Part shown: in pieces, positions 573 through 64,000 of the stretch
Layout: each line of letters opens with the position of its first letter
How positions within the stretch are numbered: position 1 is the first letter of the stretch
Origin: Gammaproteobacteria bacterium
Lineage (GTDB): Bacteria > Pseudomonadota > Gammaproteobacteria > SZUA-152
Assembly: GCA_021647705.1 (NCBI GenBank)
Contig: JAKIUF010000002.1
Span: forward strand, 137,295 to 201,294
Reading direction: 5' to 3'
DNA: 64,000 nt
Translations under genes and position numbers: made by a program
Notes under the pieces: model-generated
Databases searched by the model: none
The model's input: only the letters and a program-made list of their open reading frames with translations
What the model was told of the DNA's origin: nothing

Positions 573-578
573 CGCTCT

Positions 579-660
579 CATCAGGGGATTTTAAAGCTAG
601 CGTGGCTTTTGCGGTTTTTTTTGCAAAAGCCACGCTAGCTTTAAAAGTCCCTCTGGATGA
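579..660. repeat. 82-bp near-perfect hairpin (terminator-like or attC-like), preceded by ACATAAC and followed by a conserved 26-mer
   Basis: tcatcagggg / ttaaagctagcgtggcttttgc T8 gcaaaagccacgctagctttaa / ccctctggatga inverted repeats; CATAAC core matches the R'' cores of the right-hand integron attC sites. Confidence 0.5.
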
Positions 661-664
661 GTTT

Positions 665-890
665 GTGTACGCCCAGCATGGGCATGAACTAATGAGGTGA
701 AAGTCCTCTGTAGGAAGATCATCGCCGAACACCGTGTTGTTAGTAGGCGATAACTACTAGCGAATGGCAAGGGCCAGCCCGCGAGGGGCGGTCTGAAGGA
801 AGCCGGACGCACCAACAGTAGGCCCCATGAGGGGAATCTGCGAGCTGATGAACAAGAGCGTCATATGAGGCGTAGGCTGAAGGCGAAAAA
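665..890 (+). other. Possible truncated 5' fragment of a second group II intron (shares the first 26 nt GTGTACGCCCAGCATGGGCATGAACT with the complete intron at 2190)
   Basis: Same 26-mer placed 4 nt after hairpin 1 and 14 nt after hairpin 2; GC-rich, structured, non-coding; diverges after the 26-mer; ends at the MITE. Confidence 0.3.
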
Positions 891-894
891 AACC

Positions 895-943
895 GGGTCA
901 GAGAGCAATTGTTTCTAATATTAGTAAGTATCGCTCTCTGACC
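895..943. repeat. Palindromic MITE-like, bidirectional-terminator-like repeat, copy 1
   Basis: A-run + GGGTCAGAGAGCAATTGTTTCTAATATTAGTAAGTATCGCTCTCTGACC; the same element recurs at 6453 and 7324. Confidence 0.7.
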
Positions 944-993: not shown

Positions 994-1410
994 TTAACGC
1001 AACAGATTTTTCAGTTCTTCTATTCTTGCAGTATTCAATCGAATGACACAACTGTTTACGGTGGTTACATAAGCAGGTGTTTCCTTCTCGATCTCGAAAG
1101 CCTCTATTTTGCAAGTTCTATCACGGAAGGTAATCCAAGCATCTTGAGCTTCGCTAACTACCGCAATTAATTCTTTGCCTAGTTTTAGGTCAGCCGCATA
1201 AACGCGCTTTGCGCGTTTCTCAAAATTCACAAATTCAGTCAATAGGAGGGCATTCGAATTCATCATCTCCTTATGTACGCAGTCGTCTAATTGAGGGCTC
1301 GTAGTGATATCTGTGCAATCGAGCTCGTCCGCCAGGAAAATGGTCTTCGTAGGCTGAGCCATGCAGGAGGTGGCAGAGAAAACCAGTAAAAAAATGTGCA
1401 ACAACCTCAT
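994..1410 (-). CDS. DUF1311/LprI-like lysozyme-inhibitor family protein (putative immunity protein), signal peptide
   Basis: N-terminal signal sequence; AQDAWITFRDRTC motif characteristic of DUF1311/LprI; overlaps the upstream lysozyme-like gene by 4 nt. Confidence 0.5.
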   Translation of the reverse strand: MRLLHIFLLVFSATSCMAQPTKTIFLADELDCTDITTSPQLDDCVHKEMMNSNALLLTEFVNFEKRAKRVYAADLKLGKELIAVVSEAQDAWITFRDRTCKIEAFEIEKETPAYVTTVNSCVIRLNTARIEELKNLLR

Positions 1411-2042
1411 TTGTTCGCTCCTGAATTCTTAACTGGCTTGCGACTCTTCAAATATTTGACACGATTGCGTCCAGGCTCATATTGCTTTATTGCCGCCGTC
1501 TCATTGATGTATTTAATTAGTTCGTCAAAGTCGTTATTCATGCCGGCCTTCATAGGGTTGGGTCCTTTGGTAAAGCCCTGATAGACAAAATCAACAAGTA
1601 CGTCTCGAATGGCTTGGTCTAGTTTGTTCCACTCAACTCGACTTTTCTCTGTAGCAGTCCATTTATCATAGTTCTGTTTCGCTCGACTTTCGTAATTAGG
1701 ATATATGTTGTCGAACAACTTGACCTGCTGTGCATGGGTTATCTTTCCTATCGTCTTCTTATGCTTCTCTGCGAACTCCTTTGCCTTGGCCCCCTTAAGT
1801 CCAGCTCCCTCGGATAGTGCCTTTGCGGTATTAGAGGGGATCCCAGCTTTAGTCATGTCTTGCTTAACTACAATTTTCGTGCGGTTACCCATGTCGTATC
1901 CTCGCCCGATTGTGACGCCGGAAAGAGCGTTTCCTGGCCAGTGGATGACTCGACTAAAATATTTCGATGTCTCTGCATCATTTCCTTCTGCATCGAATGT
2001 AATCTGCCCCTTTTTAACTTTAGTAGACATTTTTTCTCTCAA
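1407..2042 (-). CDS. Lysozyme-like (T4-lysozyme/GH24-like) protein, putative toxin
   Basis: FDAEGN...GVTIGRGYDMG resembles the T4 lysozyme catalytic DTEG..TIGIGH region; coupled to the LprI-like gene. Confidence 0.45.
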   Translation of the reverse strand: MREKMSTKVKKGQITFDAEGNDAETSKYFSRVIHWPGNALSGVTIGRGYDMGNRTKIVVKQDMTKAGIPSNTAKALSEGAGLKGAKAKEFAEKHKKTIGKITHAQQVKLFDNIYPNYESRAKQNYDKWTATEKSRVEWNKLDQAIRDVLVDFVYQGFTKGPNPMKAGMNNDFDELIKYINETAAIKQYEPGRNRVKYLKSRKPVKNSGANK

Positions 2043-2103
2043 ATCAATATTGGTTTGTAGATGTTATTGTTTAGTGCTCTGTGCTGCCCAACGTCGCCCA
2101 TAA

Positions 2104-2175
2104 CCGGAATTTTACCGCGTGGTTTGGCTGTGCTAAAAAAGCCTAGCACAGCCAAACCACGCGGTAAAATGTCCG
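2104..2175. repeat. 72-bp near-perfect hairpin (terminator or attC-like), preceded by CCATAAC, immediately upstream of the group II intron
   Basis: cggaatttt / accgcgtggtttggctgtgcta A6 gcctagcacagccaaaccacgcggt / aaaatgtccg; same architecture as hairpin 1. Confidence 0.5.
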
Positions 2176-2189
2176 AGTTGATGGGCCTT

Positions 2190-4198
2190 GTGTACGCCCA
2201 GCATGGGCATGAACTCAATATAGAAATAGAAAAGAAGACACCCAGTGCGCCGAGATAAATCGGTAGTTAATCAATTGGTGAAAGCCCAATACACAGTAAG
2301 AGCTAGCCACTCGCTGTGGCCCCGAGTCATGAGCTGTTATCGAAAGAGACACAGTTAAGCGTTGACAGGGGAACGTACAGGCTCAGTATTGAGCTCCGAA
2401 ATCACATTGAGAACGTTGACCTTGTTGGGTGAAGGGGAAGACCCTATTGATAACCTCGAAAATGGCAAGAGGTTGTCAAGCTCTCCGGAGTCATAGACCT
2501 GGTGCATGTACGAATGTTAACTACGCGGAACTCGGGAGCCCCTGTGTTTGATCAGCGCCAATCCAACCTCTAGTAGGAGGCAATGGTCGGGTTGAGGAAA
2601 TAAACCAAATAATCTCAACATCAACAAACACAGGGAGTCGGACAAAACCATAGTAGTGAAGAAGCAGGCGAACAAAGAGAGCAAGAGGAAAAAAAATGAC
2701 ATATTTCAATCCCCTTTGCCATCAGCGGAGTCAGTGGAGCGAAGGGTTTTGGCTAAGAGAAAGTTTGAGTAAACCCACCGAGACCTTGACGCAGAGCAAG
2801 GAAGAAACAGGCAGGGCACTGCACAGACTACATGAAGTCGCTAAACGAGATTCCCATCTCACATTCAACAACCTGCTACACCATCTGAGTATAGAAAAGC
2901 TCACACGAGCCTACTATGCGCTCAATCGAAAAGCAGCAAAAGGTGTTGATGAGCAAAGCTGGGACGACTATGGAGAAAACCTCCAGGAAAAGGTCAGCGC
3001 ATTACACACAAAACTGCATACCCAACGTTATCAACCACAACCCACAAAACGAGTCTGGATACCCAAAGCGAGCGGTCAACTAAGACCGATAGGCATCACT
3101 GCCATCGAGGATAAAGTGGTGCAGCAAGCCTTAGTCTGGGTGATGGAGTCGATATACGAAGCAGACTTTCTGGGTTTCAGCTACGGCTTCAGGCCAAATC
3201 GAAACCCACATCAGGCGCTGGACGTTGTCTACATTGCATTGACGGAAAAGAAAGTAAGCTGGGTGCTGGATGCCGACATACAAGGATTCTTCGATCACAT
3301 AGATCATGGCTGGATGATGAAATTCATTGAGCATCGGATCAGTGATAAAAGAATACTGGGACTACTGAAAAAGATACTAAAAGCAGGTGTGATAGAAGAA
3401 GGGAAATGGTCAAAGACGCGGATTGGAACCCCGCAAGGAGCTGTTATATCACCGCTACTAGCGAATATATACCTGCACTACGTCCTAGACCTATGGGCAC
3501 ATCAGTGGCGAAGAAAATACGCGCGAGGTGAAGTCTACATCGTACGATACGCCGACGATTTTGTACTGGGTTTCCAGTACAGAATAGACGGTGAACATTT
3601 TCACCAAGCCCTGATAGAAAGACTGAAATGCTTTGGACTGACATTGCACCCAGAGAAAACACGACTCATTGAATTTGGTCGGTTCGCTGAAAGCAATAGA
3701 AGAGAAAGAGGAGCGGGTAAGCCGGAAACATTTGATTTTCTAGGCTTCACGCACCTGTGCAGCAACAAGCGAAACAATAAAGGATTTAGCGTGCGCCGAC
3801 AGACCATCAGCAAAAGGCTGAGAGCCACGGTAAAAAGGATCAAAGAACAGCTGAAAAGAAACAACATGTTCAATGTTCACCGGCAGGGACGCTGGCTTCG
3901 CAAGGTGATGCAAGGTTTGATTAACTATTATGGCGTACCGGGAAACAGCACCGCGTTGGCAAGGCTGCGAACGGAAATGTGTTGTAACTGGCGAAAGTCA
4001 TTAAGGCGTCGAGGAAACAAAAGGCCGATAAACTGGCTGCAAATGACGAAGTTAATCAACCGCTGGATACCCAAAGTCAGCGTGGTTCACCCATACCCGA
4101 ATCAGCGGCGTTGTGTTTGACTCGAAGCAGGAGCCGGATGCGTTAGTAGCGCAAGTCCGGATCTGCGCCGGAGGCCTGACAAATGAGAACTGTAATGA
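2190..4198 (+). mobile_element. Group II intron (bacterial class C-like; reverse transcriptase without an En domain); boundaries approximate
   Basis: 5' GTGTACGCCCAGCATGGGCATG resembles the Ll.LtrB 5' end GTGCGCCCAGATAGGGTG (an alternative 5' end is GTGCG at 2245); ORF in domain IV; domain V-like GAGCCGGATGCG..CGCAAGTCCGGATC with AGC triad and 2-nt bulge at 4128-4165; sits right after a hairpin. Confidence 0.7.
2696..4120 (+). CDS. ltrA: Group II intron reverse transcriptase/maturase (intron-encoded protein)
   Basis: RT motifs (RPIGITAIEDKVVQQA, FDHIDH, YADDFVLG, TQGAVISPLLANIYL) and X/maturase domain; no C-terminal HNH/En domain. Confidence 0.9.
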   Translation: MTYFNPLCHQRSQWSEGFWLRESLSKPTETLTQSKEETGRALHRLHEVAKRDSHLTFNNLLHHLSIEKLTRAYYALNRKAAKGVDEQSWDDYGENLQEKVSALHTKLHTQRYQPQPTKRVWIPKASGQLRPIGITAIEDKVVQQALVWVMESIYEADFLGFSYGFRPNRNPHQALDVVYIALTEKKVSWVLDADIQGFFDHIDHGWMMKFIEHRISDKRILGLLKKILKAGVIEEGKWSKTRIGTPQGAVISPLLANIYLHYVLDLWAHQWRRKYARGEVYIVRYADDFVLGFQYRIDGEHFHQALIERLKCFGLTLHPEKTRLIEFGRFAESNRRERGAGKPETFDFLGFTHLCSNKRNNKGFSVRRQTISKRLRATVKRIKEQLKRNNMFNVHRQGRWLRKVMQGLINYYGVPGNSTALARLRTEMCCNWRKSLRRRGNKRPINWLQMTKLINRWIPKVSVVHPYPNQRRCV

Positions 4199-4399
4199 AA
4201 AAAAAAATTACAGAGCTTGTGAGTTGGGGCTTTACGGCAACTCAAATGAAAGCTTTGCATAAACCCCTTCCTCATTTACAACAACATGGTTAAAAATTGA
4301 TGCTTTTACCAGACACGGCAAAAAATCGAAAAATTTCCGGCAAACAAACTGGTTTTTTAGATCACAGGCAACAGGAGTCCCTCGCCATCCACCCAAGCG

Positions 4400-5551
4400 A
4401 CCTGAAAATAGAAAAATGAAGAAATGACTGGGTGCTATGTAGGTAAAGGTTGTCTTTGTTTATAAACACACTTTCCCACAGACTGACCTTTCAACCAGCA
4501 CTGACCTAATTGATCAGCAAACTGCCTGATTTTGTCCATTGCGCCCACCGCCCGAAAAAACCGCTGTTCGTAGTGGTTAATCATATCCAGCCAGCCCTGT
4601 TGCTCAATCCCCAGCCTGGACAAAATGGGAGGCAGGTTATCGGAAATAGCCCCGATTTTATCATCACGAACTGCCCGGCCGGTCCAGTCCACCAACTCCA
4701 GATAATCCGGGAATGAAAAAGCGATGCCTTCAGGCTGGTTGTTGCGTTCGTCACCGATGAAATCAACCAGTCTGACAGGTGTTTGAGCTATTTGTGATGG
4801 GGCTTGATCACGTTCAGGGGTTGAGGCTTGATGAGTTCGTATTCGCGCCTGAATCGATGTGTAATCGGATGCTTCCGGGCTGGGGTTGATGCCAGCCCGT
4901 ATAGGGTTAAGGTCCACATAGCTCATACAGGTGAGCAAGGCCTGTTCATCCAGCAAAGCCTGACTTTTGTAACGCCCTTCCCAGAATCGTCCCGTGCAGC
5001 GGTCTTCTGCATTGGCCTGTCGGGCGAGAGATTCATTTAAACAGCGCATGAACCAGCCCAGATCCATCAAACGGCTACGCCATTCCTGTACAAGCTCAGC
5101 AACCAGTTTCTTCTCTGCCTTACCCTGTCGCTCTCCTTTCTTCATTTGATCAATTAACAGCGGTGCCTTGAATAACGTGGTCCAGTGTTCAATCACTTCA
5201 TCATCAGACCATGCCACAGCTTGAGGCTGATTGATGTGCAGAACCAAATGGTAATGATTGCTCATGACAGCGTAGGCACAGACATCGATAGAAAAAACGT
5301 CGGCCAGTTCAGCGAGCTTATCCACTACCCATTGTTTGCGGTGTTCATAACTTTGTCCAGAGAACTCGTCTTTTCCGCAGAGAAAGGCGCGGCGAACACA
5401 GCGCGAGATGCAATGGTAATAAGGGGTTGAATCCAGGCAGACCTGGTTTTTGCGAGGTTTTGGCATCCGTGCCTCCTTCATGTGAATTGTACGCCTTGCA
5501 ATCTAACGAGGATCAGCCAGAGTGTCAATTAATTGATGGGTGTCTCTATTT
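4400..5551 (-). mobile_element. IS200/IS605-family-like insertion sequence (Y1 HUH transposase), copy 1; left boundary uncertain
   Basis: Right end defined by identity with the inverted second copy at 63644 onward (GATGGGTGTC terminus); carries one transposase ORF. Confidence 0.55.
4435..5481 (-). CDS. tnpA: HUH (Y1) transposase, IS200/IS605 or REP-associated tyrosine transposase-like
   Basis: HYHLVLH (HUH) motif, GRYKS catalytic tyrosine region, YHCISRCVRRAF N-terminal motif; 348 aa; second copy starts at 63729. Confidence 0.7.
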   Translation of the reverse strand: MKEARMPKPRKNQVCLDSTPYYHCISRCVRRAFLCGKDEFSGQSYEHRKQWVVDKLAELADVFSIDVCAYAVMSNHYHLVLHINQPQAVAWSDDEVIEHWTTLFKAPLLIDQMKKGERQGKAEKKLVAELVQEWRSRLMDLGWFMRCLNESLARQANAEDRCTGRFWEGRYKSQALLDEQALLTCMSYVDLNPIRAGINPSPEASDYTSIQARIRTHQASTPERDQAPSQIAQTPVRLVDFIGDERNNQPEGIAFSFPDYLELVDWTGRAVRDDKIGAISDNLPPILSRLGIEQQGWLDMINHYEQRFFRAVGAMDKIRQFADQLGQCWLKGQSVGKCVYKQRQPLPT

Positions 5552-5944
5552 TCTCTATTTTCAAGTTGTCCAATTGCCCATCTTCTGATCCAGAGCATAA
5601 AGTACCATAAAAACAATATGTTGTAAGTGTTATATTTATTCGAAAAAGTTAAATCTCTTCGGGTTTTATTCCCCGCCGCTTGCGGCGTAAGGTTGGAAAA
5701 AACCAAGGGTAGCTATATACGAAGCTTTATGAAAGCTATCAGCTGGCACCGTTTGTAAGAATACCCCGCTTTCGCGTAGCGAAAGTCGAGCTTAAGCGAG
5801 AGGGCTTGCCCCGGGGATTTTTATTCTCAACCTGTGGTTGATTTTTCGAAACTAGGGAATGCCCCATTTTGTCAAATATTATTGTGTTATGGTTTTGCTT
5901 TCATAGCTGGTTATTTAGCCAGTTTAATTTTACAGGAGGTGGCC

Positions 5945-6442
5945 ATGGATTCGGCAGTTTCTTCTTCTCCCTTTTTACGTTCTGTTGTTGAGGCTATTTG
6001 CGTGCGACATTACAGCATCCGTACGGAAAAGGCTTATATTAACTGGATCAAGCGATTTATTCTTTTTCATGACAAACGTCACCCCGCTAAAATGGGAGGC
6101 GTGGAGGTTGGGGATTTTTTGACCGATTTGGCGATGAATCGACAGGTGTCGCCCAGTACACAGAATCAGGGGTTAAATGCGCTGAATTTTTTGTACAAGG
6201 TGGTTTTGGAGCAACCATTGGGGGATGTGAAAAATTTGGTGCGGGCAAAGAACAAGCGTAAATTACCGGTGGTATTAACGGTTGATGAGGTGAGGGCGGC
6301 GGTGTTGCGTGAATTGAATGGGGTGCAGTGGCTGGCAGCTTGTTTAATGTATGGTTCTGGCTTGCGATTGATGGAGTGTTTACGTTTGCGGGTGATGAAT
6401 CTTGATTTTTTGCACCGCGCAGTTTATGTGCGCATATGGTAA
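5945..6442 (+). pseudogene. intI: Integron integrase intI, N-terminal about 165 aa fragment truncated by MITE copy 2
   Basis: [51 protein letters not shown] matches the N-terminal half of IntI and the right-hand intI; ends abruptly at the repeat at 6453. Confidence 0.65.
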
Positions 6443-6452
6443 AGAAAAAACC

Positions 6453-6499
6453 GGGTCAGAGTAATACTTACTAATATTAGAAACAATTGCTCTCTGACC
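6453..6499. repeat. Palindromic MITE-like repeat, copy 2 (inverted relative to copy 1), abutting the truncated intI
   Basis: GGGTCAGAGTAATACTTACTAATATTAGAAACAATTGCTCTCTGACC flanked by A-run and T-run. Confidence 0.7.
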
Positions 6500-6562
6500 T
6501 GGGTTTTTACGCCACAAAATGAAATCGATCGTGCCTGCTCCCCTTGGTCTTTATAGACGCTG

Positions 6563-7118: not shown

Positions 7119-7231
7119 AGATAACTCCTTTTTTGATTAAACTAAATTGCATTAGATAATGGAATCAGACTCGATTGATTTTCAATCTTGCGCCAATATT
7201 TCTTTTGAATTCTCGCCATTTCACTTACTTA

Positions 7232-7309
7232 ACTCCTCTACATTTTTGCCGCAGCAAAAAGCTCCGAGGGCTTAAGGTCTAGAACAAACGCAATACGGCG
7301 AATATTCAG
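7232..7309 (-). pseudogene. Remnant of the 3' end of an XRE-family regulator gene (paralogous to 8312..8542)
   Basis: About 78 bp, about 85% identical to 8312-8390; encodes ..[22 protein letters not shown]; no N-terminal part; bounded by MITE copy 3. Confidence 0.45.
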
Positions 7310-7323
7310 AAGATGAAAAACTC

Positions 7324-7377
7324 GGGTTAGAGAGCAATACTTATTAATATTAGAAACAATTGCTCTCTCTCTGACCC
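7324..7377. repeat. Palindromic MITE-like repeat, copy 3
   Basis: A-run + GGGTTAGAGAGCAATACTTATTAATATTAGAAACAATTGCTCTCTCTCTGACCC + T-run. Confidence 0.7.
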
Positions 7378-7480
7378 GGGTTTTTCTTTTAGAGACATAT
7401 TGAATTTCTAGTATTATTGCTAACGGCCAAGCTCAGCCTCGCCGTTTTTTGGCGTCGACTGGAGCGCATGGTTCGCTGCG

Positions 7481-7879
7481 TTATTCAAAGTAGCTCCGTA
7501 AACGCTGTGCCAATTTACTGGACTGTTTGTCGTATTGCTGTTGATGCGTGGTGATTGCTATTGGGCCGATGCGCGTCACCCCACGCGCTTTCAGGTGCTG
7601 CGCCAAGATATCTATAACTTTTTTCCCGTAGCCTCGACCCCGAAATGCTGAATCGATCCACCAGCCAGGTTGAACGTCATTTAGGCCGGATGCCTCAACT
7701 AGCGCAACCAACCGACCTGATGTTTCCTCGAATAAAGCGAAAAGTCCAGATTCATAAGCAGCCCAGACTTGCGGCGGCCCCAAATCATTTCGGTGCTCTG
7801 ACAAAGATAGCCGCTCTTGAATCAACTTTGACTGGGCTGGTGAAAGTACGGATTTCTCAATCATGACTAAGCATCTCAT
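7481..7879 (-). CDS. GNAT-family N-acetyltransferase
   Basis: IDSAFRGRGYGKKVIDILAQHL acetyl-CoA binding motif (R/Q-x-x-G-x-G/A). Confidence 0.75.
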   Translation of the reverse strand: MRCLVMIEKSVLSPAQSKLIQERLSLSEHRNDLGPPQVWAAYESGLFALFEETSGRLVALVEASGLNDVQPGWWIDSAFRGRGYGKKVIDILAQHLKARGVTRIGPIAITTHQQQYDKQSSKLAQRLRSYFE

Positions 7880-8311
7880 TCAAGCAGCTAACGTCTAAAT
7901 GTCTGTTGGACTATACCGCCTCTACCGGGTCAGCAGACTATGGGGATTGTATTGAAAGCGATAGGGCTTGTCGAAGGGCGATAATACCGTTTTGGTTGTG
8001 GTCATGTTTGACAAGGCCATTTTCTTAACCATTTTCAGGTTTGTCACTCATTCAGTCTGTTTGTTGTTTAACACGTTATCATCAGGTCACCGTCCATACA
8101 ACGGGGTTGCTGGGGTTTCAGAACACACCTGAAGTCGGCCCTTTTTACATTTTGGGCAGAGACAGGTGGCGGATGTTATTCCGTATCTGTTTTTGTTTCC
8201 GGTTCACGTGGCGGTGCTTGCAGGCACTGACGGATGATCGCCAGCTTTTGCTTTCGGCTGAGGTTGGATAAAAACTCGTAATGCCAATAGCTATCGTATT
8301 AATTAATTTCT

Positions 8312-8542
8312 CTACATTTTTGCCGCAGCAAAAAGTTCCGAGAGCTTAAGCTCCAAAACAGATGCAATACGGCGGATATTCAGAAGCGAAACGTTTCTTT
8401 CGCCTCGCTCGATAGCCCCCATGTAAGTACGGTGCATTCCACACAAGCTGGCAAAATTCTCTTGCGACAGCTCAAGAGCCTCCCGTTTTTTTCGGATCGT
8501 TGTCCCAAGCGACTTTTGGGCCTGTTTTTGAGTAATTTCCAT
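8312..8542 (-). CDS. XRE-family helix-turn-helix transcriptional regulator
   Basis: [37 protein letters not shown] motif; start assumed at MEITQKQ. Confidence 0.7.
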
Positions 8543-8650
8543 CAGGCCAGTATCTGGAATGAAGACTATAAATCTACACATTATAAGTAGCAATTTTTGT
8601 GATGCGGCATATAATGCTACTTATAGTCTTCAAAAAGGGAATTCAGGAAA

Positions 8651-46529: not shown

Positions 46530-46596
46530 TCAGCGGTCTTTATTGGTCCCGCAATTTTCCTGATTGCGGGCAAGATGTTAGAATTTCCCACGTTTG

Positions 46597-46672
<76 letters not shown>

Positions 46673-46755
46673 TATAAACAATGAATTTCTTTGAGTACAT
46701 GAGGGCGCGCCAAACCAGCTTCTCGTCACGTACATTTTGAATTTCTGCGTAATTA

Positions 46756-46784
46756 TTGACAGCTAAAAACATTGGGCGTAAAGT
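46756..46784 (+). promoter_or_regulatory. Sigma-70-like promoter (TTGACA-17-TAAAGT) upstream of leader peptide and rtcB
   Basis: Near-consensus -35 with 17-bp spacer and TAAAGT -10 just downstream of tRNA-Ile2. Confidence 0.45.
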
Positions 46785-46826
46785 CCCGCCCACTATTTTC
46801 AATTCTAACTAAACAGGAGGTCATTA

Positions 46827-46877
46827 ATGTTAAAAACCCCAACATTCAAGAGCCTCGTGCCCTTTACCGCCCGGTAA
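46827..46877 (+). CDS. Putative 16-aa leader peptide MLKTPTFKSLVPFTAR with strong SD, followed by a hairpin
   Basis: AGGAGG 7 nt upstream of ATG; hairpin CCGGCCAGTACAGGCCGG at 46885-46902 then T-rich run. Confidence 0.3.
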   Translation: MLKTPTFKSLVPFTAR

Positions 46878-47006
46878 ATTTATCCGGCCAGTACAGGCCG
46901 GGCTCCTACAAAATAACAGTTTTTTAATTTTGTCGGCACTTGTCGATGCGTTGGATTATTACGTCCAGCGTAATTGTTCAACTGTGTCGCGCTGTAGGAG
47001 AAATGC

Positions 47007-47369
47007 GTGAAAATTAATAACAAATGGCTGGATGAGGTGGCATGTCTGTGTGCTGAACCGGGTCCAGAGGATGGTATAGATCCCCGTTACTTGAGTAGTG
47101 TTCAAGGGCGAATAGTGGATCACCAAAAATCATCAAGGTTATGCAATGAAATTGTAAAGGTGTTGTCGTTGGTGTTGGCAGGAGAAATGAGTAACCCGGT
47201 GTTACAAGCGCTGCTGGTTGTTGATGTTACTACAGAAGGTAATGGACAGTATTTACGTGTCAGCCTGGGGTGTCTGGAAGAAGGCGTGGAGATTGATGAA
47301 ATCCCAGGTATTAGCCGCGCTGATACAAGTTCAGGGTTATCTACGCTCAGTCATCGCACAACATATTAA
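47007..47369 (+). CDS. Hypothetical protein upstream of rtcB
   Basis: 120 aa, no recognisable motif; co-directional and adjacent to rtcB. Confidence 0.4.
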   Translation: MKINNKWLDEVACLCAEPGPEDGIDPRYLSSVQGRIVDHQKSSRLCNEIVKVLSLVLAGEMSNPVLQALLVVDVTTEGNGQYLRVSLGCLEEGVEIDEIPGISRADTSSGLSTLSHRTTY

Positions 47370-47433
47370 TCGTAAACATGTTCCGGCATTAAGGTTTCAT
47401 TATGTCGGATTAATTGAGCTAGGATGAATCGTT

Positions 47434-48631
47434 ATGCCTATTCAAAAAATAATCAGCAAGGGCAAAGTGCCGGTGAAGATCTATACCGATGAGGTGGAGG
47501 TAGCGGCGATGCAACAGCTCTATAACATGGCACAGTTACCCTTTATTCATAGTCATTTGGCGGTGATGCCAGATGTACATATGGGGAAAGGGGCGACTGT
47601 CGGATCAGTAATTCCGACTAAAGGCGCGATTATTCCGGCCGCTGTAGGCGTGGATATTGGTTGTGGTATGAATGCTGTTCGCTTGTCTATCAAAGCAAAT
47701 GATTTGCCGGATAATTTGCGTGCAATTCGTTCGACGATTGAAGAGGCGATACCCGTTGGTTATAACATGCATAAACATGATCGTGCCAGGGAATCGACGA
47801 TCCGTGCATTGTCCAGCGGATTGGACAGTATTTTAAGAAAGCATAAAAAAATCTATTCGATGCAGAAAAAACCCTATCAAACATGGATAAGGCAAATAGG
47901 AACATTGGGAGGAGGCAACCATTTTATTGAATTATGTCTGGATGAAAATCAGGATGTTTGGATTATGTTGCATTCGGGGAGTCGAGGTATCGGTAATGTC
48001 ATTGGTCAGTATTTCATTGCTTTGGCGAAAAAAGATATGGGTCAATATATTGTGAATTTGCCGGATAAAGATTTGGCTTATTTTACCCAGGGAGCCAGGC
48101 ATTTTGCTGATTATGTGGAAGCGGTTGAGTGGGGACAGGACTATGGCCATGGCCAATCGTCGTGAAATGATGCATTTCATTATCGAAGCTTTGCGGAAAA
48201 AACTGCGCAAGTTTGGTGTTACCAAAGAAGCGATTAATTGCCATCATAATTACGTGTCAAGAGAGTTTCATTTTGGTGAAGATATTTTTGTGACACGTAA
48301 AGGAGCGATTAGCGCAAGGGAAGGTGAGTTGGGAATTATCCCAGGAAGCATGGGCGCCAAATCATTTATTGTGAAGGGTAAGGGTAATCCGCAGTCATTT
48401 TGTTCTTGCGCACATGGTGCGGGGAGAAAAATGAGCCGTGCAGCGGCAAAGCGTCAATTCAGTGAGAGTGATGTGAACTTGCAAACAGAGGGCGTTGAAT
48501 GTCGGAAAGATAAAGGAATTATTGATGAGATTCCGGCTGCCTATAAAGACATCGATCAAGTGATGAAGCATCAAAGTGATCTGGTGGATATTGTGCATAC
48601 CCTTAAACAAATTGTCTGTGTGAAGGGTTAA
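47434..48631 (+). pseudogene. rtcB: RNA-splicing ligase RtcB, interrupted by a frameshift near 48104-48165
   Basis: N-terminal ORF (GVDIGCGM, GGGNHFIE, HSGSRGIGN) and C-terminal ORF (HNY, IPGSMG, SCAHGAGR) overlap out of frame at GGCCATGGCC. Confidence 0.6.
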
Positions 48632-48660
48632 AAAATATTTATAAAACAAAGGAGGAAATA

Positions 48661-48864
48661 ATGACAAGGCCAAGAGACTGGGTTGCCCGTTCGCCGTTGA
48701 TGCGTAAAGGCGGAGCCCATGTTAAATCGAAAACCGGGAAGCGTATGCGTGCTAGGCTTGATTTGGATGATGCTCTTTGTGAATGGTATGAAGAGGACAA
48801 ATTAGATATAAACGAAAAGGGGAGCCATCGGCTCCCCGTAGTTTATACGCTAGCCTCATTGTAG
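48661..48864 (+). CDS. Hypothetical small basic protein
   Basis: 67 aa, SD-like aaaggaggaaataATG. Confidence 0.35.
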   Translation: MTRPRDWVARSPLMRKGGAHVKSKTGKRMRARLDLDDALCEWYEEDKLDINEKGSHRLPVVYTLASL

Positions 48865-49289
48865 AATGTGAGATTATATTTCATTGATGGATGTTGATGA
48901 TTAAAAAAACAAAAAAATATCATTCTAATAAAAGTTTAATGTAAAGAAATATAAAGTTACAAAATAGGATGAATCACCTAAATTTATAGGTATTGTTATT
49001 TTTTAGATTAATGTGCAGAAATAATAATTGATATTTAATGTAAATATTTTATTGCAATTAAAAGTTTGTTAACTATAATGTCGCCAACATGAAAACTTTA
49101 GCCACAAATCAATCACCCTCCATCATCGCCCACAGGGCTATGCTGTTTTGTGGGTTGGGTAATAATTTGCAAATGAGCGGTATGATTTTAGATATAAACG
49201 GTAATTATAAAGAAACAATACTGATAAATAATACATTGACGTAATTAGTCTGCCACTTAGTGGAAGGCTAAAGCCTTCCCGGAAAAGAT

Positions 49290-49325
49290 AATTAAACCCT
49301 GGAAGGAAACGACCAGGGTTTTTTA
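49290..49325 (+). terminator. Rho-independent terminator-like hairpin
   Basis: CCCTGGAAGGAAACGACCAGGG plus T6. Confidence 0.55.
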
Positions 49326-49562
49326 TTGGGTACGATTTGAGAAAGTTGAAATAAATGAAACAGATAAAACAAATATTTAATACTGAGTCACGACTTATGA
49401 GACTTGCTCCATTTGACGAGATTCATTTTCCATCACGATTGGTAGAACCCATGAATGTACATTTATGTGCTTATTTTTTGGGTGACGCCATGAACTGACC
49501 TTCTGCCTATTAATTGCTTGCGGAAGGAGATAAAGAAAGCCTTCCGCGGGCAAGGTGTAAAA

Positions 49563-49610
49563 GCCCCGGAAGCCATCGAAAGATGTTGTTTACCGGGGTT
49601 TTTTTATGCC
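49563..49610 (+). terminator. Rho-independent terminator-like hairpin
   Basis: CCCCGGAAGCCATCGAAAGATGTTGTTTACCGGGG plus T7. Confidence 0.5.
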
Positions 49611-49848
49611 TCCAGCAACCCACAACGCGGTTAGCTGTGATCTTTAACAATTTGGGAATGTAACTGATTGCTGGATTTATCCAGTGTAAGGGTGAGCTTT
49701 GTCTGAAGGTTTTTGTTGTCAGGAAAGTTGTGCGGCGGATAGTTAACCCGCTGTATTGCTGGCTCGTTCAGCCACCCGTTTTTGTTAGGGGTATCGCTCA
49801 ATCAATGTAATGGTTGAGTGTTATTGATTTATCGGTAAAAAAATATAT

Positions 49849-49924
49849 TGGCAAGTGCGCTACCCGGTAGGCGGTCTCACTGTTAATGAGGTGTATGCCG
49901 GTTCGAGTCCGGCCTTGCCAGCCA
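49849..49924 (+). tRNA. tRNA-Asn(GUU)
   Basis: Hand-folded cloverleaf: acceptor TGGCAAG/CTTGCCA, anticodon arm TCTCA-CTGTTAA-TGAGG, T arm GCCGG-TTCGAGT-CCGGC, ends GCCA. Confidence 0.65.
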
Positions 49925-49953
49925 ATTAACTGTCTGAAAAGGAGGTATAGAAA

Positions 49954-50142
49954 ATGAAGGTGATGAAGCTAGAGAGACGATTTGAATCATTAATCGCGAC
50001 GATGAATGTACCTCAAACCCGAAAGAAAGGAACTGCAATTAATGCATTGTGGTTTTTAAGGGATGGGGCAATTGCTAACAGAACACATAAAAATGTTCAT
50101 GAAGCCAGTGAGATTGCGGTGAAATTAGCTAACGCTCATTAA
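49954..50142 (+). CDS. Hypothetical 62-aa protein inside the tRNA array (strong SD)
   Basis: AAAGGAGG 8 nt upstream of ATG. Confidence 0.4.
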   Translation: MKVMKLERRFESLIATMNVPQTRKKGTAINALWFLRDGAIANRTHKNVHEASEIAVKLANAH

Positions 50143-50169
50143 CGAAGAATGAATTTATTAAGCAGTATA

Positions 50170-50242
50170 TGCACCTGTAGCTGAGTCGGAATAGCGCGAC
50201 ACTGAAAATGTCGAAACGGTCGTTCAATTTGTCCCAGGTGCA
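50170..50242 (+). tRNA. tRNA-Phe(GAA)-like, probably degenerate (imperfect T-stem, no encoded CCA)
   Basis: Perfect acceptor GCACCTG/CAGGTGC, D arm, anticodon arm CGACA-CTGAAAA-TGTCG; T-arm pairs poorly. Confidence 0.4.
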
Positions 50243-50250
50243 TCAGATAT

Positions 50251-50327
50251 GGCCCGTTAGCATAGTGGTTGGATGCAAACGATTGTCAGGCGTGAGATCG
50301 CGGATTTAAATTCCGCACGGGCCGCCA
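50251..50327 (+). tRNA. tRNA-Asp(GUC)-like, degenerate (weak anticodon stem, T-loop TTTAAAT)
   Basis: Perfect acceptor GGCCCGT/ACGGGCC plus GCCA, D arm GCAT/ATGC, loop TTGTCAG gives anticodon GTC. Confidence 0.35.
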
Positions 50328-50586
50328 GTAGCGCCGCAGGTAATGACAGTAAACAACTTGTGAGCACGGCTGAAATATAGCCAAGGTGTGAACCAGAGGA
50401 CTTGGCCATTTGTTAATCCTCAGTTGGTTGTTTAACCAAAAAGTAGGTATGGCGCAGTTATTGATGAAATGGGGCGACCATTACTTGCGGTTTTTTTTAA
50501 AGTCACATTCGCTAAGCTGGCAGGGTTCTCAATCAATAATCGAGGGATCCCTGGTTGAGGCTTAGGATGTGGCACCAATGATTAAT

Positions 50587-50663
50587 GGTGAAAGTAGCTT
50601 AATGGGTAAAGCTTCTGATTGTGAATCAGATAGATGCCGGATCATCCCCGGTCTTTCACCCCA
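50587..50663 (+). tRNA. tRNA-His(GUG) with G-1, C73 and encoded CCA
   Basis: G-1 + GTGAAAG/CTTTCAC acceptor, anticodon arm TCTGA-TTGTGAA-TCAGA, C73, CCA; T-loop ATCATCC is non-canonical. Confidence 0.6.
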
Positions 50664-50696
50664 TTATTATTTAAATAATAAAAGGGAAAAGAAATT

Positions 50697-50772
50697 GGGT
50701 TGCTAGCTCAACTGGCAGAGCAATCGCCTTTTAAGCGATAGGTTCGGGGATCGTTCTCCCGGCAGCCCACCA
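50697..50772 (+). tRNA. tRNA-Lys(UUU)
   Basis: Acceptor GGGTTGC/GCAGCCC, D arm GCTC-AACTGGCA-GAGC, anticodon arm ATCGC-CTTTTAA-GCGAT, ACCA end; T-loop ATCGTTC unusual. Confidence 0.6.
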
Positions 50773-50927
50773 AACATCACATGTTACATCATTGTAATGT
50801 GATAACAGCGTTGAAACAGCACTGCATTGTTCAGCGGTTCAGGTTCTGTATGCCTGGCCTGCGCACCAACACTTAGCGAAAGCAATCGTACGGTGTGTAC
50901 AGATCAATTGTGGTGATTTCGACATCC

Positions 50928-51001
50928 ACCAGGATAGCTCAGTTGGGTAGAGCAACTGATTTTTAATCAGTTTGTCGCAGGTTCGATTCCTGCTCCAGGC
51001 A
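50928..51001 (+). tRNA. tRNA-Lys(UUU)-like with two acceptor-stem mismatches (possible pseudogene or att remnant)
   Basis: D arm GCTC-AGTTGGGTA-GAGC, anticodon arm ACTGA-TTTTTAA-TCAGT, canonical T arm GCAGG-TTCGATT-CCTGC; acceptor ACCAGGA/TCCAGGC mismatched; no CCA. Confidence 0.35.
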
Positions 51002-62778: not shown

Positions 62779-63039
62779 TTATTGTGGAGTGATGATTAAT
62801 CGATTTTGAGTAACTTGTACACAAATAGGAAGCCCAATAACAAAGCCAGATTCTTCAAGCCATGTTCCTTTGAGTAAAATAAAAGGAGTTTTAGGGTTGC
62901 CTTTATGAGGCGCGGATTTTAAGCAATAGTCACGATGCCCTTCTCGAACTATAATATGACGTTTATTCATGATTATTTCCTTGTGCAAATGGTTAAAAAC
63001 CACCACCGCCAAGGTACGAATCTTAGGGTGGTGGGCCAT
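62779..63039 (-). CDS. symE: SymE-family type I toxin-like protein (SOS-induced toxin family)
   Basis: ..RDYCLKSAPHKGNPKTPFILLKGTWLEESGFVIGLPICVQVTQNRLIITPQ resembles the E. coli SymE core [42 protein letters not shown]. Confidence 0.55.
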   Translation of the reverse strand: MAHHPKIRTLAVVVFNHLHKEIIMNKRHIIVREGHRDYCLKSAPHKGNPKTPFILLKGTWLEESGFVIGLPICVQVTQNRLIITPQ

Positions 63040-63260
63040 ATGAGGTTCGTACTACCGCGCACAAGGAACGGCCACCCGAAGGTGCCCCATACAGCCCACC
63101 GTAAAAGGGGGCAAGCCACAAAAAAAGACGCTGGCTACAATGTAGGCGTCTTTCAGGTGGCACCTTGTGTCTTGCGGGGTACGAATCCCGGCCTGATTTA
63201 CATCAAGCAAATCAACTGTAATTTAATGAGTTGGCTCTGTCAACATCGTGCCAAAATATG

Positions 63261-63375: not shown

Positions 63376-63645
63376 ATGGTTAATTTTGTAAAATTATGGA
63401 ATAGCCACCCAACCGTAGAATCATTTATAGATGATTTCCCATGTAAGAAAAATGGCAAGAAGGCATTTGACAATCAGTGTGCAATTCGCATTGGAGTGGC
63501 ATTCGAAAAAACTGGTGTCAACCTTAAGTCATTCAAAGGTGCCAAATGTTGGCATAGTCATAAGCCAGCACATATTTTGCGCGCAGAAGAAATAGAAAAT
63601 TGGCTAAAAGGTCCATTTTCGCCTTTTAAAAACATAACAGAATAA
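63376..63645 (+). CDS. Tae4-like amidase effector N-terminal fragment, truncated by IS insertion
   Basis: NQCAIRIGVAFEKTG resembles the Tae4 catalytic-Cys region NACPIRMSYVLNATG; 89 aa against about 160 for full Tae4; the stop codon is supplied by the IS terminus. Confidence 0.4.
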   Translation: MVNFVKLWNSHPTVESFIDDFPCKKNGKKAFDNQCAIRIGVAFEKTGVNLKSFKGAKCWHSHKPAHILRAEEIENWLKGPFSPFKNITE

Positions 63646-64000
63646 AATAGGACACCCATCAATTAATTGACACTCTGGTCGATCCTCGTTAGATTGCAAG
63701 GCGTACAATTCACATGAAGGAGGCACGGATGCCAAAACCCCGCAAAAATCAGGTCTGCCTGGATTCAACCCCTTATTACCATTGCATCTCGCGCTGTGTA
63801 CGTCGTGCCTTTCTCTGTGGCAAAGACGAGTTCTCCGGCCAAAACTACGAACACCGGAAACAATGGGTTGTCGATAAACTCGCTGAATTAACCCGTGTTT
63901 TTTCTATCGACGTTTGTGCCTACGCTGTCATGAGTAATCATTACCATTTAGTCCTGCACATCAATCAGCCTCAAGCTTTGGCATGGTCTGATGATGAAGT
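63644..64000 (+). mobile_element. Second copy of the IS200/IS605-like element, inverted relative to copy 1, continuing beyond the window
   Basis: 63652-63728 is the reverse complement of 5481-5549; transposase ORF from 63729 almost identical to 4435..5481. Confidence 0.7.
63729..64000 (+). CDS. tnpA: HUH (Y1) transposase, partial (runs off the window)
   Basis: MPKPRKNQVCLDSTPYYHCISRCVRRAFLCGKDEFSGQNYEHRKQWVVDKLAEL.. near-identical to the copy-1 transposase. Confidence 0.7.
   Translation, partial: MPKPRKNQVCLDSTPYYHCISRCVRRAFLCGKDEFSGQNYEHRKQWVVDKLAELTRVFSIDVCAYAVMSNHYHLVLHINQPQALAWSDDE

What the first reader, a model, noticed from the sequence alone, without database searches (positions are those of the whole stretch)
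2104..4198. Group II intron (class C-like, En-minus RT) inserted right after a terminator/attC-like hairpin, opposite in orientation to the cassette genes
Bacterial class C introns home to sites just downstream of terminator-like stem-loops. The IIC-attC subgroup targets integron attC sites in the orientation opposite to cassette transcription. This intron sits on + while the neighbouring cassette genes (1407..2042, 994..1410) and the left-hand intI-proximal array read on the minus strand. The intron lies 14 nt after a 72-bp perfect hairpin whose flank carries the CATAAC/GTTATG core shared with the right-hand attC sites. The IEP lacks an En domain, and a domain V-like element is present at 4128-4165.
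Basis: partly seen in the sequence, partly recalled or inferred. Interest (0 to 1): 0.6.

Follow-up and report, generated by a model that had tools for sequence, protein, structure and literature searches.

The report
Class E intron, not attC-type
The reverse-transcriptase gene belongs to an ordinary, complete group II intron of the class E type that sits in the end repeat of a small transposon.

Summary
The intron runs 2245-4241, not 2104-4198. These ends rest on relatives, on EBS1-IBS1 pairing that co-varies, and on an intron-free paralogous site (GACACCCA|TCAAATGAAAGC).

It is not class C. Its protein is 30% identical to a genuine IIC-attC intron protein (Kl.pn.I3) and 52% identical to Kl.pn.I5/Se.ma.I1, which is class E1. 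Its ribozyme matches Rfam RF02005, as Kl.pn.I5 does, whereas Kl.pn.I3 matches RF02001. Domain V has the 5-nt loop described for IIE/IIF introns.

The intron sits in the terminal repeat of a RayT-like (HUH/Y1) transposase element (about 2228-5568). In eight of ten other distinct insertion contexts of its clade the flanks show such a gene or remnant, or a short palindrome built from the target motif. The target is GGAC(A/G)NNCA|(T/C)nAAT.

The hairpin relationship is real but belongs to another element. Positions 2190-2215 are a 26-nt 5' stub of a Kl.pn.I3-like IIC-attC intron, right after the bulged attC-like hairpin 2096-2186. A 221-nt fragment of the same kind (665-885) follows a second hairpin.

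Overall this is a nest of known mobile elements, of modest interest.

The parts
2096..2186 (+). attC-like bulged hairpin. It has perfect 27-nt arms at 2109-2135 and 2144-2170. The outer pairing is CCCATAAC/GTTGATGGG. All three single-base bulges are on the 3' arm, and CTT lies before the intron stub.
   Evidence: the repeat finder I5. DNA fold gives -44.9 kcal/mol, z -13.75. The architecture matches the attC that carries Kl.pn.I3 in L007.
2190..2215 (+). 26-nt 5' stub of a IIC-attC group II intron (GTGTACGCCCAGCATGGGCATGAACT). There is no ribozyme body, no ORF and no 3' end.
   Evidence: The stub is identical to 665-690. The stretch 2185-2215, which includes the stub, matches the 5' end of Kl.pn.I3 in pIMP-1495 at 30/31 nt. 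No IIC D5/D6 lies downstream.
2228..2244 (+). Left terminal repeat of the RayT-like element, forming the 5' exon of the intron. IBS1 is CACCCA at 2239-2244.
   Evidence: It is an inverted repeat with 5533-5568. It is shared with the intron-free paralog L048. IBS1-EBS1 pairing co-varies.
2245..4241 (+). Complete group II intron of 1997 nt, of the Kl.pn.I5/Se.ma.I1 lineage (class E-like, IIB-like ribozyme). The 5' end is GUGCG and the 3' end is AAC.
   Evidence: Boundaries come from relatives L004, L005, L035, L006, L038-L047 and L001 and from the empty site in L048.
2281..2500 (+). Domain I core of the ribozyme. EBS1 (UGGGUG) lies at 2426-2431.
   Evidence: Rfam RF02005 gives 163.8 bits over the full model. 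Of 73 consensus pairs, 35 have compensatory changes in 10 relatives. EBS1 is shown.
2696..4120 (+). Intron-encoded RT/maturase of 474 aa. The YADD motif is present and there is no En domain.
   Evidence: Pfam and NCBIfam matches. It is 52% identical end to end to the Kl.pn.I5 IEP. The identical protein is named a group II intron RT in an NCBI MAG.
4131..4164 (+). Domain V of 34 nt, with an AGC triad, a 2-nt bulge and a 5-nt terminal loop (UAGUA).
   Evidence: Sequence and fold. It is homologous to domain V of Kl.pn.I5 and of the relatives. The 5-nt loop is a IIE/IIF trait (PMC3753933).
4167..4241 (+). Domain VI, with a bulged branch-site A 8 nt from the 3' end and a clade-specific extended distal stem.
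   Evidence: RNA fold. The extension is shared with L004, L005 and L035, whose distal-stem sequences differ.
4242..4434 (+). 3' exon, which is the inner part of the RayT-like element's left end. A second copy of the A-rich repeat lies at 4403-4433.
   Evidence: the repeat finder D3 and I21. The segment is 85% identical to the intron-free paralog L048.
4435..5481 (-). RayT-like HUH/Y1 transposase of 348 aa.
   Evidence: Weak Y1_Tnp and REP_Tyr_transpos hits. Thousands of homologues exist, some named 'REP element-mobilizing transposase RayT'. A second copy lies at 63714-64000.
5533..5568 (-). Right terminal repeat of the RayT-like element, carrying an unoccupied exact copy of the homing site GACACCCA|TCAA.
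577..661 (+). Second attC-like bulged hairpin, with ACATAAC on its 5' flank and TTT before the intron fragment.
   Evidence: I4. DNA fold gives -37.3 kcal/mol, z -10.75.
665..885 (+). 221-nt 5' fragment (part of domain I) of a IIC-attC intron. It is cut off at a palindromic element (887-943).
   Evidence: It is 78.7% identical over 225 nt to Kl.pn.I3, and its first 50 nt match Kl.pn.I3 exactly when the two sequences are read side by side. A weak RF02001 hit lies at 775-841.
63644..64000 (+). Second copy of the RayT-like element (transposase-proximal end). It has an unoccupied homing site at 63651-63662.

Best explanation
The region is a stack of four mobile or recombination elements, not one IIC-attC intron.

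(1) A bulged attC-like hairpin (2096-2186) lies with the + strand as its bottom strand.

(2) A Kl.pn.I3-like IIC-attC intron once inserted 3 nt after that hairpin, opposite to the cassette genes. Only its first 26 nt survive (2190-2215).

(3) Within 12 nt of the stub begins a RayT-like HUH/Y1 transposase element (about 2228-5568). Its ends are inverted repeats carrying GACACCCATCAA.

(4) A complete En-minus group II intron of the class E lineage (2245-4241) has retrohomed into the left repeat of that element, between GACACCCA and TCAAAT.

Shown: the intron recognises its site by base pairing of EBS1 (UGGGUG, 2426-2431) with IBS1 (CACCCA).

Inferred from what is established for En-minus introns such as RmInt1: the excised lariat-IEP particle reverse-splices into the target strand, and cDNA synthesis is primed by a nascent strand at a replication fork.

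Inferred from intact motifs only: the intron is currently active.
For: Boundaries:
- Relatives with 64-87% identical IEPs begin at G(U/A)GCG directly after GGAC(A/G)NNCA and end at ...UAC(G/C)G(N)(G/A)AC.
- An intron-free paralog in the same assembly reads AAGACACCCA|TCAAATGAAAGC without interruption.

Pairing, IBS1/EBS1 in different relatives:
- CACCCA/UGGGUG
- CACGCA/UGCGUG
- CAGGCA/UGCUUG
- ACAGU/ACUGU

Ribozyme:
- RF02005 matches over the full model at 163.8 bits.
- 35 of 73 consensus pairs carry compensatory changes.
- Domains V and VI fold as in Kl.pn.I5.

Class:
- The IEP is 30% identical to the Kl.pn.I3 IEP and 52% identical to the Kl.pn.I5 IEP.
- Kl.pn.I5 is the same as Se.ma.I1 (PMC6764390). 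S.ma.I1 is listed as class E1 (PMC3522654 supplement).
- Kl.pn.I3 hits RF02001, RF01998 and RF00029, whereas this intron and Kl.pn.I5 hit only RF02005.
- Domain V has a 5-nt loop.

Target. A RayT-like gene, or a remnant of one, lies next to the intron in:
- the window;
- L006;
- L039 and L041-45, which share one site;
- L046, with three tandem target motifs upstream of a full-length gene.
L004, L005 and L038 are short palindromes built from the same motif. L047 carries two intron copies at like motifs, with no RayT-like gene detected. Two exact unoccupied sites exist in the window.

IIC-attC remnants.
Against: - No full IEP phylogeny against a curated class reference set was possible. Class E rests on one named relative at 52% identity, the Rfam family and one RNA trait.
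- No EBS2-IBS2 pairing could be identified, although class E introns usually have one.
- Rfam RF00029 does not detect D5/D6.
- Domain V pairs the triad G with A rather than U.
- The outer limits of the RayT-like element are approximate. The DNA to the right of it (5569-5945) is not IIC intron, so the order of events (insertion versus deletion) at the stub is not established.
- The hairpins cannot be proven to be functional attC sites, and the nearby intI is only an N-terminal fragment.
- Two perfect homing sites in the window are unoccupied, which may mean low activity or a strand or context requirement.
Confidence: 0.85

Rival explanations
1. One reading: the RT-encoding intron is itself a IIC-attC intron that begins at GTGTACG (2190), 14 nt after the attC-like hairpin, and recognises that stem-loop.
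For: - The first 26 nt after the hairpin are a perfect IIC-attC 5' end.
- The IEP lacks an En domain.
- The orientation is opposite to the neighbouring genes.
Against: - Similarity to IIC-attC introns stops at 2215.
- Every close relative of the RT-encoding intron starts at the GUGCG equivalent to 2245 and lacks the 55 upstream bases.
- An empty site joins 2244 to 4242.
- IEP identity to Kl.pn.I3 is 30%.
- The Rfam family differs.
Confidence: 0.02
2. A functional twintron or composite: an outer IIC-attC intron still hosts the RayT-like element and the inner intron, and can be removed as one unit.
For: - Nested group II introns exist; L047 shows a second RT gene directly after a relative.
- Internally deleted IIC-attC mini-introns exist, for example on the V. 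harveyi plasmid L049.
Against: - No IIC domain V/VI or any other IIC sequence is found downstream of the RayT-like element or elsewhere in the window.
- Only 26 nt of the outer intron remain.
Confidence: 0.03
3. The link between this intron clade and RayT-like elements is incidental. The conserved GACACCCA flank is just a short IBS1 found by chance in many places, not a specialisation on these repeats.
For: - Only about 9 nt of the 5' exon and about 5 nt of the 3' exon are conserved.
- Two Alcanivorax sites, L038 and L040, have no transposase gene nearby.
- In P. putida only 2 of 9 intron copies were REP-associated (PMC1525189).
Against: - Four independent loci have the RayT-like gene or a remnant within 500 nt.
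- L046 has three tandem copies of the motif upstream of the gene.
- Sites without a gene are palindromes of the same motif.
- In the window, three of the four occurrences of the 8-mer are at the ends of the two element copies.
Confidence: 0.12
4. The two long hairpins are not attC sites. They are terminator-like or other palindromic repeats, and the IIC remnants reflect the general class C habit of inserting after stem-loops.
For: - Hairpin 577-661 follows directly the stop codon of a + strand HxlR gene.
- The stems are much longer and more perfect than most attC sites.
- IIC-attC-lineage introns are also found outside integrons (PMC3001079 Table 3).
- The intI nearby is truncated.
Against: - An ACATAAC/CCATAAC box lies on the 5' flank, as in the attC carrying Kl.pn.I3.
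- Single-base bulges lie only on the 3' arm.
- The NTT| spacing is the same as in L007.
- An integron-integrase fragment lies 3.7 kb away.
- The remnants belong to the attC-specific lineage.
Confidence: 0.3

Closest known systems
Kl.pn.I5 / Se.ma.I1 (bacterial class E1 group II intron on Klebsiella ColE1-type and other plasmids)
   Same: - The IEP is 52% identical over its full length, including the C-terminal HP(Y/W)P motif.
- The Rfam D1-D4 family (RF02005) is the same.
- Domain V (5-nt loop, G-A at the triad) and domain VI layout are the same, the EBS1 is in the same hairpin, and both lack an En domain.
   Different: - The homing site differs (ACAGU|A versus CACCCA|U).
- The window intron and its closest relatives carry a 47-nt extension of the domain VI stem.
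- Kl.pn.I5 has a plausible EBS2-IBS2, whereas none was found here.
IIC-attC introns (S.ma.I2, Kl.pn.I3, E.c.I7)
   Same: - The 26-nt stub (2190-2215) and the 221-nt fragment (665-885) belong to this lineage.
- They sit as these introns do: on the strand opposite to the cassette genes, 3 nt after a bulged hairpin.
   Different: - The RT-encoding intron is not of this lineage (30% IEP identity, other ribozyme family, 6-bp EBS1, no adjacent hairpin).
- The IIC-attC pieces here are dead remnants without an IEP or catalytic domains.
[quoted passage not shown]
   Same: An En-minus bacterial intron whose natural target is a repeat at the end of another transposable element, so target copies come in both orientations (PMC5894124).
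   Different: - The intron class differs.
- The host element here is a RayT-like HUH/Y1 transposase element rather than ISRm17.
- Only one of three available sites is occupied.
Class E intron fragments H.ha.F1/F2 in the Halorhodospira halochloris CALIN next to the IS200/605 element ISHahl1 (Sonbol and Siam 2021)
   Same: A class E intron, integron cassettes with attC-like hairpins and a Y1-transposase element are clustered together (PMC7923331).
   Different: - Those introns are 5'-truncated and their targets were attributed to attC-like hairpins.
- Here the intron is complete and its target is shown to be the transposon repeat, not the hairpin.
- Whether the same holds in H. halochloris was not tested.

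Membership tests
Group II intron (general) | Intron-encoded RT/maturase | tested here: met
   TIGR04416 gives 364 bits (cutoff 300). RVT_1 gives E 2.5e-36. The YADD motif is present.
Group II intron (general) | Domain I-IV ribozyme fold | tested here: met
   RF02005 matches model positions 1-225 of 225 at 163.8 bits (gathering score 49). 35 of 73 pairs are compensatory in 10 relatives.
Group II intron (general) | Domain V (34 nt, AGC triad, 2-nt bulge) and domain VI with a bulged A near the 3' end | tested here: met
   Domain V lies at 4131-4164 and domain VI at 4167-4241. The folds are the same as in Kl.pn.I5 and the Alcanivorax relatives. Caveat: RF00029 does not hit.
Group II intron (general) | GUGYG...AY ends and EBS1-IBS1 pairing at the 5' junction | tested here: met
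   The ends are GUGCG...AAC. The 6-bp pairing has four co-varying versions. An empty site confirms the junctions.
Class C / IIC-attC (for the RT-encoding intron 2245-4241) | IEP groups with class C / IIC-attC proteins | tested here: not met
   The IEP is 30% identical to the Kl.pn.I3 IEP and 52% identical to the class E1 Kl.pn.I5 IEP. PDB class C RTs score no better than the LtrA or T.el RTs (127-151 bits).
Class C / IIC-attC (for the RT-encoding intron 2245-4241) | IIC-type ribozyme | tested here: not met
   Kl.pn.I3 hits RF02001, RF01998 and RF00029. This intron hits RF02005 only.
Class C / IIC-attC (for the RT-encoding intron 2245-4241) | Insertion a few nt downstream of a stem-loop or attC, with a short IBS1 and no EBS2 | tested here: not met
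   The 5' splice site is 59 nt from the hairpin, and the bases in between belong to other elements. No upstream hairpin at a fixed distance was seen in the relatives' 5' flanks, which were inspected by eye only and not folded. IBS1 is 6 bp. EBS2 was not found, which alone is inconclusive.
IIC-attC (for the remnants 2190-2215 and 665-885) | Sequence belongs to the IIC-attC lineage | tested here: met
   The fragment is 78.7% identical over 225 nt to Kl.pn.I3. The stretch 2185-2215, which includes the 26-nt stub, matches Kl.pn.I3 at 30/31 nt.
IIC-attC (for the remnants 2190-2215 and 665-885) | Located on the attC bottom strand just 3' of the folded stem, opposite to cassette transcription | tested here: inconclusive
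   The architecture matches the L007 attC: a CATAAC box, bulges on the 3' arm and NTT| before the intron. The stub is opposite to genes 994-2042. The hairpins are not proven attC sites, and the gene upstream of fragment 665-885 is on the same strand.
IIC-attC (for the remnants 2190-2215 and 665-885) | Complete ribozyme and IEP | tested here: not met
   Only 26 nt and 221 nt of domain I remain. No class C IEP and no D5/D6 are present in the window.
Bacterial class E (IIE) group II introns | IEP inside the class E clade | tested here: inconclusive
   The nearest named intron is Kl.pn.I5 = Se.ma.I1 (class E1 in the PMC3522654 supplement) at 52% identity. No tree against a reference set could be built.
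Bacterial class E (IIE) group II introns | IIB-like ribozyme with a 5-nt domain V loop, and an En-minus IEP | tested here: met
   The domain V loop is UAGUA. 5-nt loops occur in most relatives with a recognisable domain V (some are ambiguous). The trait is described in PMC3753933. No En domain is present.
Bacterial class E (IIE) group II introns | Defined EBS2-IBS2 pairing | tested here: inconclusive
   No complement of 5 bp or more to exon positions -18..-7 was found in intron positions 41-331 of the window copy.
RayT / IS200-like HUH (Y1) transposase elements | Y1 HUH transposase | tested here: inconclusive
   PF01797 gives E 0.0015 (19 bits, below cutoff). NF047646 gives 39.7 bits (cutoff 80). 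HYH and Y..NP.RA motifs are visible in the sequence. Homologues are named RayT by JGI.
RayT / IS200-like HUH (Y1) transposase elements | Gene flanked by inverted palindromic repeats, in more than one copy | tested here: met
   Repeats lie at 2228-2250 (interrupted), 4403-4433 and 5533-5568. A second copy lies at 63644 onwards, and further copies occur in L031 and L048.

The most novel reading that the evidence does not exclude
This class E intron clade may have specialised on the hairpin-forming terminal or REP-like repeats that RayT-like HUH transposases act on. It may recognise them as single-stranded hairpin DNA at replication forks, a IIB-like parallel to the stem-loop targeting of class C. 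If so, reported 'IIB introns associated with integrons' would be passengers of ssDNA transposons that land near attC hairpins, not attC-targeting introns.
Probability: 0.2. Interest if true: 0.55.

Novelty: new member of a known kind. Interest (0 to 1): 0.33.

Why it matters
- It corrects a tempting mis-annotation. An En-minus intron lying near an attC-like hairpin, opposite to cassettes, is not necessarily a IIC-attC intron. Boundaries and class must be tested.
- It gives a clear, base-pairing-supported homing site for an uncharacterised class E clade, namely the end repeats of RayT-like transposase elements.
- It shows how four elements that all depend on single-stranded or hairpin DNA pile up in one spot of a degraded integron.
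- That offers an alternative explanation for the published association of class E/IIB introns with cassette arrays.
- None of the individual parts is new in kind.

Tried and rejected
- Rfam RF00029 for D5/D6 gave no hit even at E<=1. Domains V and VI were established by homology and folding instead.
- Classing the IEP by PDB sequence search was uninformative: class C, ML and CL RTs all scored 127-151 bits.
- Fetching pIMP plasmids by GenBank accession failed. Kl.pn.I3 was reached through a DNA search instead.
- The genome-contig scan with the IEP returned only relatives of about 52% identity or less, from Acidobacteriota, Clostridia and others, and not the close clade. Close relatives came from exact-protein look-ups.
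- The search for EBS2-IBS2 gave no consistent pairing.
- I looked for the rest of the IIC-attC intron, or its D5/D6, after the RayT-like element and found none, so the twintron idea was rejected.
- I looked for attI and for right-hand attC sites with the CATAAC/GTTATG core; this was not confirmed and was not pursued.
- PMC2714756 (Leon and Roy 2009, the attC stem-loop paper) is not held.
Full report
**What is at the coordinates**

The ORF at 2696-4120 (+) encodes a 474-aa protein. It matches RVT_1 (E 2.5e-36) and the NCBIfam equivalog for group II intron RT/maturase (TIGR04416, 364 bits against a cutoff of 300). No endonuclease domain is present. The identical protein is on record as a group II intron RT from a Gammaproteobacteria MAG.

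Rfam finds a full-length match to group-II-D1D4-6 (RF02005) at 2281-2500, at 163.8 bits. It finds no match to the D5/D6 model RF00029, even at E<=1. Its arms at 2109-2135 and 2144-2170 are 100% complementary. It extends with three single-base bulges to 2096-2186 (dG -44.9 kcal/mol, z -13.8).

**True ends of the RT-encoding intron**

I fetched contigs encoding the closest proteins:
- L004, L005 and L035, at 80-87% identity;
- L006, at 69%;
- L036 and L037;
- the Alcanivorax loci L038-L045;
- Isoalcanivorax pacificus L046;
- L047;
- the Klebsiella plasmid intron L001, at 52%.

All of these begin at G(U/A)GCG, equivalent to window 2245, directly after a conserved exon ...GGAC(A/G)NNCA. All end at ...UAC(G/C)G(N)(G/A)AC, equivalent to 4241. 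None contains the 55 bases that precede 2245 in the window.

Domain V is 4131-4164. Domain VI is 4167-4241, with a bulged A 8 nt from the end and a distal stem extension shared by the closest relatives.

The EBS1 hairpin loop (UGGGUG, 2426-2431) pairs with the last six exon bases (CACCCA, 2239-2244). The pairing co-varies:

| Locus | IBS1 | EBS1 |
|---|---|---|
| Window and closest relatives | CACCCA | UGGGUG |
| Alcanivorax | CACGCA | UGCGUG |
| I. pacificus | CAGGCA | UGCUUG |
| Kl.pn.I5 | ACAGU | ACUGU |

Domain I folds into a consensus with 73 pairs, 35 of which carry compensatory changes in ten relatives.

Finally, a scan of metagenome contigs for the predicted ligated-exon sequence found one hit, VAPF01049484.1. 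It comes from the same assembly as a second copy of this locus. There...AAGACACCCA|TCAAATGAAAGCTCTGC... is uninterrupted inside a degenerate paralog of the host element. The intron is therefore 2245-4241.

**Class**

As a positive control I retrieved a genuine IIC-attC intron: Kl.pn.I3, next to blaIMP-4 on pIMP-1495 (L007).
- Kl.pn.I3 hits RF02001, RF01998 and RF00029. The window intron and Kl.pn.I5 hit only RF02005.
- The window IEP is 30% identical to the Kl.pn.I3 IEP and 52% identical, end to end, to the Kl.pn.I5 IEP.
- Kl.pn.I5 is the same intron as Se.ma.I1 (PMC6764390). S.ma.I1 is listed as class E1 in the supplement of PMC3522654.
- Domain V here, and in most relatives with a recognisable domain V, has a 5-nt terminal loop (some are ambiguous). 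Nagy et al. give this as a peculiarity of IIE/IIF introns (PMC3753933).

I could not build a full reference phylogeny, and I found no EBS2-IBS2 pairing. The class E label is therefore well supported but not proven.

**What the intron is inserted in**

The 5' exon (...AGAAAAGAAGACACCCA) and the 3' exon (TCAAAT...) together form one end of an element. Its other end, at 5533-5568 on the opposite strand, carries the same sequence, GACACCCATCAATT.

Between the ends lies a 348-aa protein (4435-5481, minus strand). It gives weak Y1_Tnp and REP-associated tyrosine transposase matches. It has thousands of homologues, several named 'REP element-mobilizing transposase RayT'.

A second copy of the element starts at 63644 and runs off the window. 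It is 92% identical in DNA, and similarity starts 7 nt before GACACCCA. Further copies occur in L031 and L048.

The same association recurs in relatives:
- L006 has a remnant of this transposase right after the intron.
- The Alcanivorax site represented by L039 and L041-45 has a transposase fragment 100 nt downstream.
- I. pacificus has three tandem copies of GGACAGGCA|CTAATTG upstream of a full-length gene, and the first copy is occupied by the intron.
- L004, L005 and L038 are short palindromes made of the motif and its complement.

The window holds two exact, unoccupied copies of the site, at 5533-5544 (-) and 63651-63662 (+).

Homing of an En-minus intron into the inverted repeats of another transposable element has a precedent in RmInt2 and ISRm17 (PMC5894124). 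I found only a passing record of group II introns next to REP sequences, in P. putida (PMC1525189).

**What the hairpin relationship really is**

The 28 bases at 2188-2215 (TT|GTGTACGCCCAGCATGGGCATGAACT) are identical to 663-690. From 665 the similarity continues for 221 nt. That stretch is 78.7% identical to the first part of Kl.pn.I3, and the first 50 nt match exactly when the two sequences are read side by side. So 665-885 is a 5' fragment of a IIC-attC intron, and 2190-2215 is a 26-nt stub of one.

Both follow long bulged hairpins (577-661 and 2096-2186). These share several features with the attC that carries Kl.pn.I3:
- an (A/C)CATAAC box on the 5' flank;
- single-base bulges only on the 3' arm;
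- three unpaired bases (NTT) before the intron.

An integron-integrase N-terminal fragment lies at 5946-6442. It matches TIGR02249 positions 1-153 of 315 at E 6.5e-54. They are dead, however: no class C IEP and no IIC domain V/VI exist in the window.

The stub ends 12 nt before the RayT-like element's left repeat. The fragment at 665-885 ends at a palindromic element (887-943). Members of the same palindromic family also sit at the break in intI (6443-6513) and at 7316-7389.

**Mechanism**

Shown by sequence:
- an intact ribozyme and IEP;
- the EBS1-IBS1 pairing;
- exact junctions.

Inferred from established knowledge of En-minus introns (RmInt1, class C):
- The lariat-IEP particle reverse-splices into the target strand.
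- It uses a nascent DNA strand at the replication fork as primer.
- This would favour one orientation and could explain why two perfect sites are empty.

The order of events at the stub is inferred and not proven. The proposed order is IIC-attC insertion, then truncation or arrival of the RayT-like element, then class E intron homing.

**Verdict**

- A real, probably functional group II intron is present, but it is a new member of the class E-like Kl.pn.I5 lineage sitting in a transposon repeat.
- The IIC-attC features belong to neighbouring remnants.
- Each component is of a known kind.
- The modest interest lies in the clearly defined homing site on RayT-like element ends and in the stacking of four hairpin or ssDNA-dependent elements.
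- The stacking suggests a different reading of the reported association of IIB/class E introns with cassette arrays (PMC7923331).

Noticed in passing
window 2190-2215; L048 (reverse complement) 7622-7649; L049 1504-1535: Short 5' stubs of IIC-attC introns recur, with breakpoints clustered at intron nt 26-32, just after the small 5' hairpin GCCCAGCAUGGGC. Three cases were seen:
- 26 nt in the window;
- 28 nt after a third, different bulged hairpin in another contig of the same assembly;
- 32 nt on a V. harveyi plasmid, where the intron's 3' end follows directly (an internally deleted mini-intron).
Why the breaks cluster there is unexplained.
   Followed up: partly
window 887-943, 6443-6513, 7316-7389: A family of roughly 60-70-nt near-perfect palindromes (AAAAACCGGGTCAGAGAGCAAT...ATTGCTCTCTGACCCGGGTTTTT). 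One copy abuts the truncation point of the 221-nt IIC-attC fragment. Another abuts the truncation point of the integron integrase gene. This suggests a mobile or recombinogenic miniature element that causes deletions.
   Followed up: partly
window 5946-6442 (+): Only the N-terminal half of an integron integrase is present (TIGR02249 positions 1-153 of 315). The gene stops at the palindromic element. Cassette-like minus-strand genes lie on both sides of it, so the integron is degraded or rearranged. attI was not identified; GTTATGG at 5886 is the only GTTATG in the first 10 kb.
   Followed up: partly
window 994-2042 (-): The two overlapping genes next to the hairpin encode a Pesticin-like lysozyme-fold toxin homologue (PF16754) and an LprI lysozyme-inhibitor homologue (PF07007). 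They look like a toxin/immunity pair carried as one cassette.
   Followed up: no
window 63714-64000 (+) and L031 4906-5426: Additional copies of the RayT-like transposase element: 96% identical in protein at the window's right edge, and an 88% identical partial tandem copy in another assembly of the same locus. The element is therefore multi-copy and IS-like rather than a single domesticated RayT.
   Followed up: partly
window 46596-51001 (+) and 63024-63106 (-): A cluster of seven tRNA genes, and a match to the C4 antisense RNA family (RF01695, 59 bits) known from P1/P7-type phage immunity regions, a few hundred bases from the second RayT-like element copy.
   Followed up: no
L047 3001-6387: A 61%-identical relative of the intron is followed directly by a second RT gene (415 aa, RVT_1 plus GIIM) with its own domain V. 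A further copy of the first intron's 5' end lies 3 kb downstream. This may be a nested or tandem intron arrangement.
   Followed up: no
window 7225-7312 and 8299-8386: An 88-nt direct repeat (88% identical). The second copy overlaps the 3' end of the XRE-type HTH gene (8312..8593, minus strand). The first copy stands alone, as if from a deleted paralogous cassette.
   Followed up: no
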